Origin: a virus
Lineage: Duplodnaviria; Heunggongvirae; Uroviricota; Caudoviricetes
Strand: one strand, 5' to 3'
Length of the DNA stretch: 64,000 nucleotides
Virus record (IMG/VR): IMGVR_UViG_2684622670_000009
Location: 20,476 to 84,475 of that record
The notes under the pieces were generated by a model, which saw only the letters and a list, made by a program, of their open reading frames with translations, was not told the DNA's origin and searched no databases. Positions within the stretch are counted from its first letter, which is position 1. Every line of letters starts with the position of its first letter. The translations under genes were made by a program, and so were the position numbers. Of the stretch, positions 24,480 to 49,993 are shown piece after piece.

Positions 24480-24760
24480 TAACACTCCACCCTGGTGTGT
24501 TGAATGTCAGATATAATCGGCATACTCAAATCACTCCTAACGATATGAGTCATCACCAGAAAATCAGGATTAATGCGCCGGACTCTTCCCGGCTGTCACA
24601 CCGAATCGCCAGGATGGTGAATCCGCAGTCCGACGCTATGAACGGGGCTTGCACATTCCGGCTACCTGGTTTGTTGCCTGAGCTAGGGGAAAAGGTAACC
24701 CCTTTAACGTCACCAGACCGCTAACGACGCATGTGCCAGACGCCGTGTTACAACCAAATG

Positions 24761-24836
24761 TGGTGACCCCTACCGGACTTGAACCGGTGACCGTGCGATT
24801 ATGAGTCGCCAGCTCTAACCACTGAGCTAAAGGGCC
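24761..24836 (-). tRNA. trnI: tRNA-Ile2 type (anticodon CAU, ileX-like)
   Basis: GGCCCTTTAGCTCAGTGGTTAGAGCTGGCGACTCATAATCGCACGGTCACCGGTTCAAGTCCGGTAGGGGTCACCA. Full cloverleaf, encoded CCA, close to E. coli ileX. Confidence 0.85.
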
Positions 24837-25545: not shown

Positions 25546-25694
25546 TGGTTATCCCTCAATAAAAGTGACATATTTATTAGATTGCGGTGCCGGGTGCCTC
25601 CCGGTGACGTTAACCAGTTAACAATTAACGCCGGAATGTTTAATCATCAAGGAGGATTGTTTTAACTGTTCCGCGTGCGCTTAGCCGAATTCAC

Positions 25695-25806
25695 CGCAAT
25701 GGTAAGAGCACTTGGCTGGCTGGGCGGCGATGACGCCTGTACGCATTTGGTGATCCGGTTCTGCTTCCGGCATTCGCTTAATTAGCCAAATACTCTTAAC
25801 GTTGCG
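25695..25806 (-). repeat. Long-hairpin module D (degenerate copy), immediately 3' of tRNA-Ser
   Basis: 5' arm CGCAACGTTAAGAGTATTTGG pairs with 3' arm CCAAGTGCTCTTACCATTGCG. The arms are homologous to modules A-C. An internal CCGG-AAGCAGAA-CCGG hairpin is present. Confidence 0.45.
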
Positions 25807-25807
25807 C

Positions 25808-25894
25808 TGGTGGAGAGTAATGGAATCGAACCATCATCGCTTGCGCAATGGGACGGTTTTCAAGACCGCTTGAGCGCCATACTCCCTACTCTCC
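25808..25894 (-). tRNA. tRNA-Ser (anticodon UGA), type II with a long variable arm
   Basis: 87 nt. Acceptor GGAGAGT/ACTCTCC; anticodon arm GCGGT-CTTGAAA-ACCGT; variable arm ATTGC-GCAA-GCGAT; T arm GATGG-TTCGATT-CCATT; encoded CCA. Confidence 0.8.
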
Positions 25895-26485: not shown

Positions 26486-26561
26486 TGGCGATGGTGGGTG
26501 GATTCGAACCACCGACCAGTTAGTTAACAGCCAACTGCTCTAACCGCTGAGCTACACCATC
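26486..26561 (-). tRNA. trnA: tRNA-Asn (anticodon GUU)
   Basis: GATGGTGTAGCTCAGCGGTTAGAGCAGTTGGCTGTTAACTAACTGGTCGGTGGTTCGAATCCACCCACCATCGCCA. Perfect cloverleaf. Confidence 0.9.
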
Positions 26562-27219: not shown

Positions 27220-27249
27220 ATATTACACTAATAAATTTATTAGAGCAAT
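27220..27249 (-). promoter_or_regulatory. Bivalent C1 operator overlapping a sigma70 promoter
   Basis: Perfect ATTGCTCTAATAAATTT on the minus strand (27249-27233). An inverted, overlapping ATTACACTAATAAATTT sits on the plus strand (27222-27238). Promoter: -35 TTGCTC (27248-27243), 17-nt spacer, -10 TAATAT (27225-27220). Confidence 0.7.
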
Positions 27250-30200
27250 ATAGCAATAACGTCATGAGCTACACCACGAGTGTTCCCCTTACAAGACACA
27301 GAACGTCTGGCAAAAAGAGGTTCCACTCTGAAGCCACTGTCTTGGTAAAGCTCCCTGATGTTTGGCGCACCACTATTAGTAATGAGGATCTTTGCACCTC
27401 GGCGATGAGCATCCATTAGCAGAGATACCAGGCGTTTTTGCTCTTCAAACTTAAAGTCATGACCGGAATAGTTTGTGAACCCCTCTGTATTGGGGAGCGG
27501 TTCATACGGAGGATCGCAAAAGATGACATCTCCTTCTCCGGCAGCTTCAATCACCGCTGAAAAATCACCACATACAAACTCAGAACGCCCTTCAGCACCG
27601 AGGAAGGCTTCCATCTCCTGTAATGGGAAATACGGAGTTTTATACTTCCCATAACCAACATTAAACTCACCGGCCTGGTTGTAACGCGTCAATCCGTTAA
27701 AACAATGTCGGTTCAGGAACAAAAACGCTGCTGCACGATGTAAATCATCATAGGCTTGTTTGTTAAACGCATTCCGTACTGCCAGGTATCCTTCCTGTGT
27801 GTTGTAGTCCTGGAAAAACCGATGCGCCAGAGTGATAAGTGAATGTCCCTCACGTTGCAGAGTCCTGTAAAAGTTAATCAGGTCAGCATTCACATCATTT
27901 AGCAGATTTTCTTGATATCCGGCATTTATGAAGACAGCTCCGCCACCAACGAAAGGCTCGATCAGGCGCTTTCCGTCAGGTAAATGCCTAAAGATTTGTT
28001 CAAGAACACCAAATTTTCCGCCGACCCATTTAAATATGGGACGGTCAAATTCTGCCGTTAGCTTAACTCTCCGTTCTGTTGCTTCATGATTTTTTGCCTG
28101 CTGATATGCAGCCTTAATAATCCGCTCACCAATCCATCGCATTACTGGTATCGCCATGCTATTGCCGATCGCTTTGTAACGCGGTCCGTCAGCTGCAAGC
28201 ATCGCGGCCTCTTCTTCGCTTAAATCTGGATAGTGATTGCGAAGGTATGCCAGTTCATCTGAAGTAACTTTTTTACGCTTTTCCGTCGGGATCAACGTAT
28301 GCCCATCAGGAAAACCTTGCAGTCTTTCACATTCGACAGGGGTAAGACGGCGGACAGCTACTGCTGCGTTTCCTACGTCATAGCAAACGGCTGTTGTATT
28401 TTTGGCCATTAAAGATGGTGAAGTATTCTTAGTTGCAGCATGTTGTGTACCGCTCATACGCTCAGGAAAAGCCAATGTAACAAGATGCTCATGGCTTTCT
28501 TGCTCACGTGCCCGCAATGTACCATGCCCTTCTGACCAAAAACCTGCTCCTGTGCTGCTAAAAACTGCAAGGTCAGTGGCATCTTTAAAGTCTCTCGCCT
28601 TTACTGTCGATGCGGTTTCATCGCCAATATATTCCCCAAATGCCGCCATCCTGAAAGCGTTTACGGCTTTCGTCGATTTCATACCGGGGGTAATGTCAGC
28701 GTGTAGGCATGGATTTAGGCTTTCGCCACTGATTGCAGCGCCATTTGCAATAATGGCGGAAGCGATTTCCTTCTTTTTTCGGCTCGGCGCAATATTCCGG
28801 CGCACGCCTTCGAACTCAAAAAGTACCGTTGCGGGATCGAGGTCTGTTCGAGCACTTGCGACAACAAACACGCGTCGGCGTCGTTGTGCCACTCCGAAGT
28901 ATTGGGCATCAAGGATTCTCCAGGCCACCTTTCGCTGCGGTCCATAAATACAACCACACTGCGGCCACTTTGGAGCATGGCAACCGGTTTTGCCATCCCA
29001 CCGCCAGAACGCGTTACTTTTTCCTGATTCAGGTCGATCACCTGGTTCAAATGGCGCATCTTCTCCAGCCAATCCGGCAAGGAAACATCCGAAGGCGTTA
29101 TCTGCCGATGACAAGACTCCTGGGACATTTTCCCAGACGATAACGGCTGGTTTGAGAAATGACTCAGCCCGTTTGTCGTCAATTGCATTTGCAAGCTCCA
29201 CATACTTTAAAGTTAGCGCGCCACGCTCATCATCAAGCCCACCACGTAATCCCGCGATACTGAATGCCTGACAGTTATGGACCACCGCACCATTGAGGAT
29301 ATAGGAATGATCACCTTCGACTTCTATGTTGTATACAGTATCTAGGCCTACCGATTTAAACTCTTTGACTGTTCGTAAAAGCATTCCATGAGCCAATCTT
29401 GATTTACGTGACAATTTCTGCGGGCAGATTGTTACCTGATAATAATTCCGTTGATTTACCACGCGATCCTCGATCACTTTTTTGGGCTCAACTTCAATAA
29501 AGCTGACCGAAGAAACATAACCACAAGTCTGTGACACCCCCGCAACGCCCCAAGCAAGCGCAGGACTAACACTATTAATTCTAAATCCCGCTTTACCACT
29601 TGGTGTCCCATCAGTATCAAGATAGCCTTGTAAAAACACATGACGCAATGGATGCGACATCACCCATGCAGGGATACGCTTAGCATGGCTTAACTCGCCA
29701 AAATGTTCATTAAGCCAATTGGCATAACACGTATCATTCAAGGTTACTTTGATGCTCCCTCGGATTTCTCTTGCCACGGAAAATATGTTTTCTGGTATGC
29801 GACAATGAAACTTTCTCAATTTCTGGCAATTTATGCCAAAAACAACCGCCTTCTTAGATTTACCTCTCCATCTCCTAATATATCCATCGCCAACATAAGC
29901 GCCCGCAAGATACATAGCCTGTTCTTCAGACAAGAACCGAGAACAAATATCTGGAGATGCAATATTGAAATTAGTTAGAGCGCACCATTGATATCCTGGC
30001 ATATCACATGCTGCTCGCCATTCCGGTTCAGACAACAACTCTCTCTTAAAATATGTGCCATTTTTCCGGGTGTTTTGGGCTTTCCACCGAACAGCCAGGA
30101 AGGGATGGTCATTGGTTGTTCTTATACCTAAAGGCTGCCCAACGGCATTAAGTAACCCCGTATTAGCTATTTTTGAACCAACTCTTTTTACTTGTTGTAA

Positions 30201-30527
30201 CCGCCCGAGATGACTGACTACGTAATCGCCAGGGCAAACATCTTCTATTGGTTTATAACCATTTTTACAAAGAACCATATGCCCCGCGGTAAAACATGGT
30301 GTTCCCCCGACGAGCACGTCAGGGGATTCGATTTCCCCAGCCAGGACTTTTTTGGCAAGTTTAGTCATGTCGCCAAGGTTGGCGACATGGGGCCAGCGGT
30401 GCGCAAGAACGGCCGATGGAAAAGACTCGATTTCAGCAAACCACGCCGGACGCATACCCAACGGTTCCCAGGCAATACTCGCGGCTTCAATTCCACTGCA
30501 AACAGATCCATAGCACAGCTCTTTCAC
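27240..30527 (-). CDS. dmt: Bifunctional DNA methyltransferase Dmt (N-terminal C5-cytosine MTase interrupted by an intein; C-terminal Dam-like N6-adenine MTase)
   Basis: 1095 aa. C5 motifs: I ([10 protein letters not shown]), a split motif IV (GGTP/CQAFS), ENV, and QRRRRVF-type. C-terminal Dam motifs: KWVGGK, FVGGGAV, DPPY. Confidence 0.9.
29274..30296 (-). mobile_element. Intein with LAGLIDADG homing endonuclease domain (aa 78-418 of Dmt)
   Basis: Starts CFTAGHMVL (Cys1). Block [17 protein letters not shown] motifs [11 protein letters not shown] and [11 protein letters not shown]; ends GAVVHN followed by Cys+1. Excision restores GGTPCQAFS. Confidence 0.85.
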
Positions 30528-31779: not shown

Positions 31780-31796
31780 ATATTTATTAGTGCAAT
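31780..31796 (-). promoter_or_regulatory. C1 operator upstream of uhr-hrdC-dmt
   Basis: Minus strand ATTGCACTAATAAATAT (15/17). Confidence 0.55.
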
Positions 31797-49679: not shown

Positions 49680-49729
49680 AGTTACGGCCTCATTCGTAGG
49701 TTTAACAACCTGCGCCCCGCTGCTAAACG

Positions 49730-49806
49730 GGTGGCAGGACGTGACGGGGTTAGCAGACTGGCACGAATGAAACCAGCAGGCCGAAGCCTCCCCATCACGC
49801 CCCACC
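49730..49806 (-). ncRNA. c4: c4 antisense repressor RNA (immI)
   Basis: 10-bp closing stem CGTGATGGGG/CCCCGTCACG and an AGGC-TTCG-GCCT hairpin. The loops carry CATTCGT and CTGCTAA. These are complementary to the direct repeats GTTTAGCAG...ACGAATG found both upstream (~49872-49900) and downstream (~49685-49730). Confidence 0.6.
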
Positions 49807-49993
49807 ATAATTCGGGCGTAACGTGGTTTTACGGACACAAAAATACCGCAATATCGGATATCTGCGGTTGTCCGCATTCGTATTCAGGCTGCTAAACCCG
49901 GTCGCAGAATTTGCTACGACGGCGGAACTATAAGCCTGAACGATTAAAAGGTCAATATGATGCGAAAAGATAGCATTCGCGACTTAAAAATAC

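What the first reader, a model, noticed from the sequence alone, without database searches (positions are those of the whole stretch)
29274..30296. Full-length intein (Hint + LAGLIDADG) inserted in the catalytic PCQ motif of the P1-type Dmt methyltransferase
The dmt ORF is 1095 aa. C5-MTase motif IV is split as VGGTP | CFTAGHMVL...GAVVHN | CQAFSIAG. The 341-aa insert has every class-1 intein hallmark: Cys1, block B TTNDHPF, two LAGLIDADG motifs ([22 protein letters not shown]), and a terminal HN followed by Cys+1. That Cys+1 is the catalytic cysteine of the methyltransferase. Removing the insert restores GGTPCQAFS and leaves 754 aa, the length I recall for P1 Dmt. Inteins are very rare in E. 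coli-type phages and plasmids. Here methyltransferase activity, and so self-protection and Dam-dependent pac and oriR control, would depend on protein splicing.
Basis: partly seen in the sequence, partly recalled or inferred. Interest (0 to 1): 0.8.

Follow-up and report, generated by a model that had tools for sequence, protein, structure and literature searches.

The report
Mobile intein splitting P1-type Dmt methyltransferase
The DNA methyltransferase gene of this P1-like phage-plasmid is interrupted, exactly at its catalytic cysteine, by a complete and intact-looking self-splicing intein with its own homing endonuclease; about 30% of P1-like elements carry it, but I found no annotation or paper that mentions it.

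Summary
ORF 27240..30527 (minus strand, 1095 aa) is a P1-type Dmt, with a C5-cytosine MTase at the N-terminus and Dam at the C-terminus. It carries a 341-aa in-frame insert (29274..30296) between VGGTP and CQAFS.

- **Identity.** The insert is a canonical intein with a LAGLIDADG endonuclease: Cys1, TxxH, two LAGLIDADG motifs with their aspartates, terminal His-Asn and Cys+1. The AlphaFold model (pLDDT 91.7) best matches PI-SceI, Tli/Pho VMA, PI-PfuI and PI-PkoII.
- **Host gene.** Removing it gives 754 aa, collinear with P1 Dmt, and raises the PF00145 score.
- **Distribution.** It is present or absent at one site: 133 of about 495 P1-like plasmids and 152 of 492 dmt-carrying complete E. coli genomes have it. 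One laboratory P1vir stock has it too.
- **Integrity.** All 38 copies examined are intact and at least 98.5% identical (dN/dS about 0.29). They sit in diverged dmt alleles with three different target-recognition regions.
- **Overstated claim.** Only the C5 activity must wait for splicing. Dam is a separate domain, and dmt is dispensable in Dam+ hosts.
- **Wider family.** Same-site inteins occur in C5-MTases of many taxa, and C-5 methylases are a listed intein host in actinophages.

Verdict: a new member of a known kind. Splicing and homing remain untested.

The parts
27240..30527 (-). dmt ORF (1095-aa precursor): C5-cytosine MTase, intein and Dam N6-adenine MTase
   Evidence: ORF list and translation. 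PF00145 scores 105.7 bits and PF02086 193.3 bits. TIGR00571 (dam) scores 252.5 bits. 94% identical to P1 Dmt once the insert is removed.
30297..30527 (-). N-extein (aa 1-77): C5-MTase motif I up to GGTP of motif IV
   Evidence: Translation ends ...DVLVGGTP. Collinear with P1, P7 and SJ46 Dmt.
29274..30296 (-). Intein, 341 aa (1023 nt), in frame, Cys1 to Asn341
   Evidence: Absent from 363 of about 495 P1-like plasmid dmt genes. GC is 42.8%, against 48.9% for the exteins.
29976..30296 (-). N-terminal Hint (splicing) region with block A ([13 protein letters not shown]) and block B (..TTNDHPF.., Thr61/His64)
   Evidence: Hint_2 match to residues 1-49. All-beta in the model. C1, T61 and H64 are invariant in a 10-member family alignment and in 38 of 38 P1-like copies.
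29412..29939 (-). LAGLIDADG homing-endonuclease domain (approximate limits, intein residues 120-295)
   Evidence: PF14528 scores 33.2 bits. The helix/strand pattern is in the model. Foldseek hits to I-SceI, I-OnuI and I-AniI cover this part.
29883..29909 (-). LAGLIDADG motif 1, LAGAYVGDG (catalytic Asp137)
   Evidence: G132, D137 and G138 are invariant across the family. Intact in 38 of 38 copies.
29607..29633 (-). LAGLIDADG motif 2, LQGYLDTDG (catalytic Asp229)
   Evidence: D229 is nearly invariant and G230 invariant. Intact in 38 of 38 copies.
29274..29402 (-). C-terminal Hint region with block F ([16 protein letters not shown]) and block G (NGAVVHN)
   Evidence: TIGR01443 is above its cutoff. 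phmmer alignment to the Spl DnaX mini-intein C-terminus. N323 and N341 are invariant.
29271..29273 (-). Cys+1 codon: first C-extein residue and the catalytic Cys of the motif IV PCQ
   Evidence: Cys at +1 in 9 of 9 aligned relatives and in all 74 same-site or related loci translated.
27240..29273 (-). C-extein: rest of the C5-MTase (motifs IV-X and the variable target-recognition region), then the Dam domain (27252..28043)
   Evidence: [26 protein letters not shown] and GNSMAIPV are seen in the translation. Dam profile matches.
31780..31796 (-). C1 repressor operator Odmt (Op68 homolog) upstream of the uhr-hrdC-dmt operon
   Evidence: Operator consensus scan. Alignment to the annotated P1 Odmt/Pdmt region.

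Best explanation
This is a bona fide, full-length, most likely active mobile intein. It is inserted between Pro77 and the catalytic Cys of motif IV (GGTP|CQAFS) of the C5-cytosine methyltransferase half of a P1-type Dmt.

Inferred mechanism:
1. The uhr-hrdC-dmt operon sits behind a C1-repressed promoter, so the 1095-aa precursor is made on derepression.
2. The Hint domain splices itself out by the standard pathway: Cys1 N-S acyl shift, trans-thioesterification to Cys+1, Asn341 cyclisation and S-N shift. This yields the 754-aa Dmt, whose catalytic Cys is the former +1 residue, plus a free 341-aa intein.
3. The free intein's double-motif LAGLIDADG endonuclease cuts the uninterrupted GGTP-CQAFS coding sequence of intein-less P1-like dmt alleles when two elements meet in one cell. 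Repair from the intein+ copy then copies in the intein together with a short flanking tract (homing).

Shown here: the anatomy, the fold, conservation of every catalytic residue, presence/absence at a single site, and near-identical copies in diverged alleles. Inferred only: splicing, DNA cleavage and homing. Only the C5-MTase activity must wait for splicing; the Dam domain probably does not.
For: **Anatomy**
- Cys1, T61xxH64, two LAGLIDADG motifs with D137 and D229, K206, H340-N341 and Cys+1 are all present.
- C1, T61, H64, D137, K206 and N341 are invariant, and D229 and Cys+1 nearly invariant (at least 90% of sequences), in relatives down to 29% identity; H340 is not conserved in them. All nine of C1, T61, H64, D137, K206, D229, N323, H340 and N341 are intact in 38 of 38 P1-like copies.

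**Profiles**
- LAGLIDADG_3 and Hint_2 reach the Pfam thresholds. TIGR01443 is above its cutoff.

**Fold**
- The AF2 model has pLDDT 91.7 and pTM 0.89.
- The best PDB matches are all endonuclease-containing inteins: PI-SceI 2.6e-17, TliVMA 3e-16, PhoVMA, PI-PfuI and PI-PkoII.

**Host gene**
- Removing the insert gives 754 aa, collinear with P1 Dmt.
- PF00145 rises from 105.7 to 126.2 bits, with one continuous match across the junction.

**Mobility signature**
- 133 intein+ against 363 uninterrupted alleles among P1-like plasmids. 152 against 339 among complete E. coli genomes.
- 38 of 38 copies are exactly 1023 nt with no stop codon, at least 98.5% identical, dN/dS about 0.29.
- The adjacent N-extein diverges down to 92% among intein+ alleles.
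- Identical intein haplotypes occur in dmt alleles with different target-recognition regions. Host ORFs are 1095, 1013 and 1148 aa, and all three types also exist without the intein.
- A synonymous marker travels with the intein. The base at -1 is A in 38 of 38 intein+ alleles and T in 9 of 9 sampled intein-less alleles. None of 363 intein-less plasmids matches the precise-excision junction exactly.
- In one allele (L004) the sequence is identical to the P1vir-type allele through the intein and switches to the P1-reference haplotype within 24 nt after it.

**Other**
- Intein GC is 6 points below the exteins.
- The operon has the conserved C1 operator.
Against: - No experiment: splicing, cleavage and homing are all inferred.
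- Block F position 4 is Asn (VYNIEV) rather than the Asp common in class-1 inteins. It is invariant in this intein family, so it looks like a family trait rather than decay.
- P1-like elements are highly mosaic. General homologous recombination could by itself spread one ancient insertion among alleles and produce the same haplotype patterns.
- The Hint_2 score only just reaches its threshold, and Intein_splicing is below threshold.
- C5 methylation by P1 Dmt has itself never been shown, as far as the records and papers seen here say.
Confidence: 0.85

Rival explanations
1. The intein splices, but its endonuclease no longer promotes homing. On this reading the patchy distribution comes from one old insertion shuffled among P1-like plasmids by ordinary homologous recombination, plus occasional loss.
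For: P1-like dmt regions are visibly mosaic: there are three target-recognition-region types and several flank haplotypes. Recombination alone could place one intein in many backgrounds. No cleavage data exist.
Against: All 38 copies keep both LAGLIDADG aspartates and K206, with no stops or deletions and dN/dS about 0.29; a useless endonuclease should decay. Intein divergence (at most 1.5%) is well below that of the adjacent 231-nt N-extein (up to 7.8%). At least one exchange breakpoint lies within 24 nt of the intein end. No precise-loss allele was found among 363 empty sites.
Confidence: 0.12
2. A decayed, non-splicing insertion. It permanently inactivates the C5-MTase half, and this is tolerated because only the Dam half, or neither half, matters.
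For: dmt is non-essential in Dam+ hosts (PMC10695390). C5 activity of P1 Dmt is only 'perhaps' in the annotation. Block F has Asn instead of the usual Asp. A Mannheimia relative keeps the intein in a truncated MTase.
Against: Every splicing residue is intact in 38 of 38 copies, and apart from the penultimate His they are invariant or nearly so across relatives at 29-52% identity. The reading frame is always preserved. There is purifying selection on the insert. The C-extein MTase motifs VI, VIII, IX and X remain intact.
Confidence: 0.03
3. Not an intein, but a lineage-specific accessory domain of Dmt, or a bacterial intein-like (BIL) autoprocessing domain.
For: None beyond the marginal Hint_2 score.
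Against: The insert is absent from about 70% of orthologs, with a seamless junction. It sits in the most conserved catalytic motif, not in a variable region. It has a nested homing endonuclease, a terminal Asn and a +1 Cys. Its whole-length structural matches are to canonical inteins.
Confidence: 0.01

Closest known systems
Endonuclease-containing inteins with solved structures: PI-SceI (yeast VMA1), TliVMA/PhoVMA, PI-PfuI, PI-PkoII
   Same: Same two-part architecture: a Hint splicing domain interrupted by a double-motif LAGLIDADG endonuclease. These are the best whole-length structural matches. Cys1, block B His, terminal His-Asn and Cys+1 are shared. Insertion is at a catalytic or conserved site of the host protein.
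   Different: Only 11-16% sequence identity. At 341 aa it is more compact than these (361-537 residues in the solved chains). The host is a phage-plasmid DNA methyltransferase rather than an ATPase, RNR or polymerase. Block F position 4 is Asn. No biochemical data exist.
Inteins of actinobacteriophage DNA methylases (N6/N4 MTases: PMC5050341, PMC9957025; the C-5 methylase IPR001525 is listed as an intein host in bioRxiv 10.1101/2025.01.02.630785)
   Same: Phage-borne methyltransferase invaded by a LAGLIDADG-type intein. Patchy presence among close relatives, interpreted as homing and within-gene recombination.
   Different: Different phage group and hosts (Actinobacteria versus Enterobacteriaceae phage-plasmids). 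Most described cases are N6/N4 enzymes. Their insertion sites were not compared with this one here.
Unnamed same-site inteins in C5-MTases of other bacteria, phages and giant-virus MAGs (for example the Mannheimia haemolytica 'Hint domain-containing protein / DOD-type homing endonuclease' P0011, and loci L021-L050 and L124-L177)
   Same: Inserted at the identical point, between the residue before the motif IV catalytic Cys and that Cys (..GGTP|C..HN|CQAFS..SPD|C..HN|CKHFS..GFP|C..HN|CQGFS). Same length class (313-403 aa) and same CF[TP]AG start. 28-54% identity to the window intein.
   Different: At most 54% identical, so the P1-like copy is a distinct lineage. Most relatives have intein GC equal to that of their locus, whereas the P1-like copy is 6 points lower than its exteins. 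None of them has been characterised, as far as the literature searched shows.

Membership tests
Canonical (class-1-type) intein | Nucleophile (Cys/Ser) as first residue | tested here: met
   Cys1 (CFTAGH). It is invariant in the family alignment and in 38 of 38 copies.
Canonical (class-1-type) intein | Block B TxxH motif | tested here: met
   T61-N-D-H64. Both T61 and H64 are invariant.
Canonical (class-1-type) intein | C-terminal Asn (usually His-Asn) followed by a Cys/Ser/Thr +1 residue | tested here: met
   H340-N341 then Cys+1. TIGR01443 scores 25.9 bits against a cutoff of 15.6.
Canonical (class-1-type) intein | HINT fold of the splicing domain | tested here: met
   AF2 model with pLDDT 91.7. 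Foldseek hits to PI-SceI, VMA, Prp8 and gp41-1 inteins and to a branched-intermediate structure.
Canonical (class-1-type) intein | In-frame insertion at a conserved host site, absent from orthologs, whose removal restores the host protein | tested here: met
   363 plasmid alleles and 339 E. coli genome alleles are uninterrupted. The spliced product is 754 aa and collinear with P1 Dmt. The PF00145 score rises.
Canonical (class-1-type) intein | Protein splicing actually occurs (ligated exteins plus free intein) | not testable with these tools
   Needs expression followed by western blot or mass spectrometry.
LAGLIDADG (DOD) homing endonuclease, intein-borne | Two LAGLIDADG motifs, each ending in an acidic catalytic residue | tested here: met
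   LAGAYVGD137G and LQGYLDTD229G. PF14528 scores 33.2 bits against 22.5.
LAGLIDADG (DOD) homing endonuclease, intein-borne | Pseudo-dimeric alpha-beta-beta-alpha-beta-beta-alpha fold | tested here: met
   Secondary structure of residues 124-291 in the model. Foldseek hits to I-SceI, I-OnuI, I-AniI and I-WcaI.
LAGLIDADG (DOD) homing endonuclease, intein-borne | Site-specific cleavage of the intein-less allele | not testable with these tools
   Needs purified protein and an empty-site DNA substrate.
LAGLIDADG (DOD) homing endonuclease, intein-borne | Population signature of homing: the same element at one site in diverged alleles, with co-converted flanks | tested here: inconclusive
   The pattern fits. 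General recombination among mosaic P1-like plasmids is not excluded.
C5-cytosine DNA methyltransferase (host domain) | Motif IV Pro-Cys with catalytic Cys, plus motifs I, VI (ENV), VIII (QxRxR), IX and X | tested here: met
   After in-silico splicing the protein reads [40 protein letters not shown] and GNSMAIPV are present. PF00145 scores 126.2 bits.
C5-cytosine DNA methyltransferase (host domain) | m5C methylation activity and specificity | not testable with these tools
   The P1 annotation says 'perhaps at C5 cytosine'. No data were found.

The most novel reading that the evidence does not exclude
The intein is more than a passenger. Its endonuclease would work as a weapon between competing P1-like phage-plasmids, cutting the dmt gene of intein-less co-resident or superinfecting relatives during lytic growth (marker exclusion, as with T-even intron endonucleases). 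In addition, or instead, splicing through the Cys1/Cys+1 pair would act as a post-translational switch that delays or conditions m5C methylation of the phage genome.
Probability: 0.1. Interest if true: 0.7.

Novelty: new member of a known kind. Interest (0 to 1): 0.45.

Why it matters
- **Textbook system.** P1 is a classic phage and the standard E. coli transduction tool, and E. coli is the default 'intein-free' host for intein work. Yet an intact-looking, probably mobile intein sits in about 30% of P1-like phage-plasmids, in 2.8% of complete E. coli genomes, and in at least one laboratory P1vir stock.
- **Missed by annotation.** The records carry it simply as 'Dam family methyltransferase'. 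I found no paper that mentions it.
- **Experimental model.** Natural intein+ and intein- partners exist, along with three host-allele types and diagnostic flanking markers. That makes it a ready genetic system for measuring intein homing, co-conversion and fitness effects in a phage-plasmid.
- **Practical point.** dmt lengths of 1013, 1095 and 1148 aa are intein-containing precursors, not novel fusion enzymes.
- **Limits.** It does not change concepts. The intein is canonical, and C5-MTase motif IV turns out to be a widely used intein site.

Tried and rejected
1. **Conserved Dmt domain.** Rejected: 363 of about 495 plasmid alleles and 339 of 492 E. coli genomes lack the insert, with a seamless junction.
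2. **Literature.** Ten full-text searches combined intein with P1, dmt, RCS47, punavirus, phage-plasmid, Mannheimia and cytosine methyltransferase. They found no description of this intein. One Mannheimia hit concerned unrelated BIL domains in FhaB. One search was wasted on 'DMT' noise.
3. **Sequence search of the PDB.** It gave only weak hits: Spl DnaX mini-intein at 1e-3 and PI-PkoII at 0.01. The fold search was needed.
4. **Tracing the donor.** I compared the two upstream flank haplotypes with the flanks of the 44-54%-identity relatives. No clear match emerged. The low intein GC only hints at a lower-GC source.
5. **Dependence of Dam function on splicing.** Considered and rejected as unsupported. 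P7's record even predicts an internal late promoter inside the gene; I did not test this in the window.
6. **Other inteins nearby.** The DnaB-like ban ORF (23115..24485, 456 aa) has a normal length, so I saw no second intein candidate.
Full report
**1.

The window carries a 1095-codon ORF on the minus strand, 27240..30527. Its N-terminal part matches C5-cytosine methylases (PF00145, 105.7 bits, in three separate stretches). Its C-terminal 270 residues match Dam (PF02086 193.3 bits; TIGR00571 252.5 bits).

Residues 78-418 correspond to window 29274..30296, exactly the coordinates given. This segment begins [10 protein letters not shown] and ends ILNGAVVHN. It is preceded by DVLVGGTP and followed by CQAFSIAG. 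Deleting it leaves 754 aa.

The reference P1 Dmt (NC_005856, annotated as a bifunctional methyltransferase that acts 'perhaps at C5 cytosine') is 754 aa. Its alignment to the window protein has a single gap, the 341 residues, and the exteins are 94% identical. After in-silico splicing, PF00145 rises to 126.2 bits with one continuous match over residues 8-135. The insert has 42.8% GC, against 48.9% for the rest of the gene.

**2. What the insert is**

Sequence profiles:
- LAGLIDADG_3 scores 33.2 bits against a gathering score of 22.5.
- Hint_2 scores 28.5 against 28.4.
- Intein_splicing is below threshold.
- TIGR01443, the intein C-terminal splicing region, scores 25.9 against 15.6.
- PHROGs matches only the intein portion of an intein-containing NrdD family.

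Motifs:
- Block A is [13 protein letters not shown].
- Block B is ..TTNDHPF.. (Thr61/His64).
- LAGLIDADG motif 1 is LAGAYVGD137G, and motif 2 is LQGYLDTD229G.
- Block F is [16 protein letters not shown].
- Block G is NGAVVH340N341, followed by Cys+1.

An AlphaFold2 model built on a 10-sequence alignment is confident (mean pLDDT 91.7, pTM 0.89). Its best PDB matches over the whole length are all endonuclease-bearing inteins: PI-SceI (2.6e-17), TliVMA (3e-16), PhoVMA, PI-PfuI and PI-PkoII. Free-standing LAGLIDADG enzymes (I-SceI, I-OnuI, I-AniI) cover the central domain, and mini-inteins (Prp8, gp41-1) cover the Hint part.

One departure from the usual class-1 pattern is Asn, not Asp, at block F position 4. 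It is invariant across the family alignment, so I read it as a family trait rather than decay.

**3. The insertion point**

The intein sits between Pro and Cys of the motif IV Pro-Cys dipeptide of the C5-MTase. Cys+1, which the intein needs for trans-thioesterification, is therefore the catalytic nucleophile of the methyltransferase once the exteins are ligated. That role of the motif IV Cys is established knowledge of C5-MTases.

The remaining C5 motifs are intact in the C-extein: [31 protein letters not shown] and GNSMAIPV.

**4. Population evidence**

| Collection | dmt junction found | Uninterrupted | Intein found |
|---|---|---|---|
| PLSDB plasmids | 495 records | 363 | 133 records |
| GenBank phage records | 18 records | 13 | 5 records (3 phages) |
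| Complete E. coli genomes (5,426) | 492 genomes | 339 | 152 genomes (148 plasmid and 5 chromosomal places) |

- The three intein+ phages are RCS47, vB_EcoM-Ro157c2YLVW and a 'P1' isolate.
- The intein is also in Salmonella, E. albertii, E. fergusonii and Shigella plasmids.
- The closest relatives of the window are E. albertii IncY plasmids: the intein is 99.9% identical and the first 750 nt of the C-extein are identical.

I extracted 38 intein+ loci and 9 intein-less loci.

Integrity:
- Every intein copy is exactly 1023 nt with no stop codon.
- Each retains C1, T61, H64, D137, K206, D229, N323, H340 and N341.
- There are 18 nucleotide haplotypes. The lowest pairwise identity is 98.5%, and a crude dN/dS is about 0.29.

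Flanking divergence:
- The 231-nt N-extein next to the intein diverges down to 92% among intein+ alleles.
- dmt exists in three target-recognition-region length variants (672, 754 and 807 aa). Each is found with the intein (1013, 1095 and 1148 aa) and without it. Identical intein haplotypes occur in different variants.

Flank markers:
- The last N-extein base is A (CCA) in 38 of 38 intein+ alleles and T (CCT) in 9 of 9 sampled intein-less alleles.
- None of the 363 uninterrupted plasmid alleles matches the window's precise-excision junction at 100%.
- Two near-upstream flank haplotypes accompany the intein, in 30 and 8 copies.
- In one allele (L004) the sequence is identical to the P1vir-type allele through 600 nt upstream, the N-extein and the intein. 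It then switches to the P1-reference haplotype by +24 nt.

This is the pattern expected of an element spreading by endonuclease-initiated gene conversion with short co-conversion tracts. It does not exclude spread by general recombination in these mosaic plasmids.

**5. Relatives elsewhere**

The protein search found inteins 47-52% identical at the same site of related Dcm-like enzymes. These include a Mannheimia haemolytica protein that sources name 'Hint domain-containing' or 'DOD-type homing endonuclease'. About 30%-identical ones sit at the equivalent Pro/Glu-Cys site of actinobacterial C5-MTases.

Scans of species-representative genomes and of IMG/VR gave many more. I translated the junctions of 74 loci. 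Most are again at the motif IV catalytic Cys, with junctions such as ..GGTP|C..HN|CQAFS..FGSP|C..|CQDLS..SPD|C..|CKHFS and ..GFP|C..|CQGFS. They come from Firmicutes, Actinobacteria, Proteobacteria, Chloroflexota and giant-virus MAG contigs. A minority, mostly archaeal, are in other proteins.

So the C5-MTase motif IV Cys is a widely used intein site, and the P1-like copy is one distinct lineage of that family.

**6. Literature**

- No paper in the searchable library links an intein to P1, dmt, RCS47 or P1-like phage-plasmids.
- Inteins in actinophage DNA methylases are described (N6/N4 type: PMC5050341, PMC9957025). A 2025 preprint lists the C-5 methylase (IPR001525) among known actinophage intein hosts (10.1101/2025.01.02.630785).
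- Database records call the P1-like gene only 'Dmt' or 'Dam family site-specific DNA-(adenine-N6)-methyltransferase'.
- The intein+ 'P1' record OP279344 is the genome of a laboratory P1vir stock used in Argonaute work (10.1101/2022.09.09.507302).

**7.

The gene lies in the uhr-hrdC-dmt operon. The operon sits behind the conserved C1 operator Odmt (window 31780..31796) and is followed by the Oban operators (27222..27249). Expression, including that of the endonuclease, is therefore expected on derepression; this is an inference. Splicing would create active C5-MTase and release the endonuclease.

The claim that Dam-dependent pac and oriR control depends on splicing is not supported, for three reasons:
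- Dam is a separate C-terminal domain.
- dmt is non-essential in Dam+ hosts by CRISPRi (PMC10695390). It is required only in Dam- hosts (PMC12707154).
- P7's record even predicts an internal late promoter within the gene.

**8. Verdict**

This is a real, canonical, apparently active and mobile intein. It is undescribed for this well-known phage family but belongs to a known kind. Identity is near certain. Activity and homing are probable (about 0.75-0.85) but untested.

Interest is moderate. It is a surprise for people who work on P1 and E. coli, and a convenient experimental system. It is not a new principle.

Noticed in passing
L001:3130-3150 (NC_005856 dmt, motif IV): The reference P1 genome encodes VWGTPCQAFS. 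That is a Trp in place of the second conserved Gly of motif IV, which is GGTPCQ in the window and in the 8 other intein-less alleles sampled. The reference strain's C5-MTase may be impaired, which could explain why m5C activity of P1 Dmt is only 'perhaps' in the annotation.
   Followed up: partly
L002 (OP279344.1 58915-65937): A GenBank 'Escherichia phage P1 isolate del res del mod' is the genome of a laboratory P1vir stock. It carries the intein and the short (P7-like) target-recognition region of dmt, so it differs substantially from the reference P1 at this locus.
   Followed up: partly
window 28100-28950 (C5-MTase variable region); L011, L016, L108: The dmt target-recognition region comes in at least three length variants (spliced proteins of 672, 754 and 807 aa). 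All three occur with and without the intein. This implies different m5C specificities circulating among P1-like elements.
   Followed up: partly
window 24761-24836, 25808-25894, 26486-26561 (all minus strand): The tRNA cluster downstream of dmt is tRNA-Asn(gtt), an 87-nt tRNA-Ser(tga) and tRNA-Met/Ile-type(cat). Reference P1 has Asn and Thr at the corresponding place, and phage Ro157c2YLVW has Asn, Tyr and Thr. The tRNA cargo is variable.
   Followed up: no
P0011 (Mannheimia haemolytica, 439 aa; seen on 578 contigs); L134/L135: In Mannheimia the related intein (47% identity) is followed by CQSDKGGTVKAS... and an early stop. An intact-looking intein persists inside a truncated C5-MTase gene.
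   Followed up: no
L154, L156, L159, L161, L164 (IMG/VR GVMAG contigs): Giant-virus MAG contigs carry 28-31%-identical inteins at the same motif IV Pro|Cys site of their C5-MTases (..GFP|CF..HN|CQGFS).
   Followed up: no
L101, L102 (IMG/VR P1-like contigs): In two intein+ loci the reading frame from the dmt start stops after 61 and 8 codons, although the intein itself is intact. This is either an N-extein frameshift (pseudogene) or a sequencing error.
   Followed up: no
L009 (NZ_CP173574.1 plasmid): An intein+ dmt is truncated after about 564 codons next to an IS91-family transposase and is annotated as a partial 'DNA cytosine methyltransferase' pseudogene. The intein is retained.
   Followed up: no
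window 49727-49933 (minus strand) and 25583-25698 (minus strand): Rfam finds the P1 immI C4 antisense RNA and its a1/b1 targets. It also finds an STnc100-like sRNA match between the tRNAs, in the region of P1's annotated dicF-like segment. Both fit a P1-type backbone.
   Followed up: no
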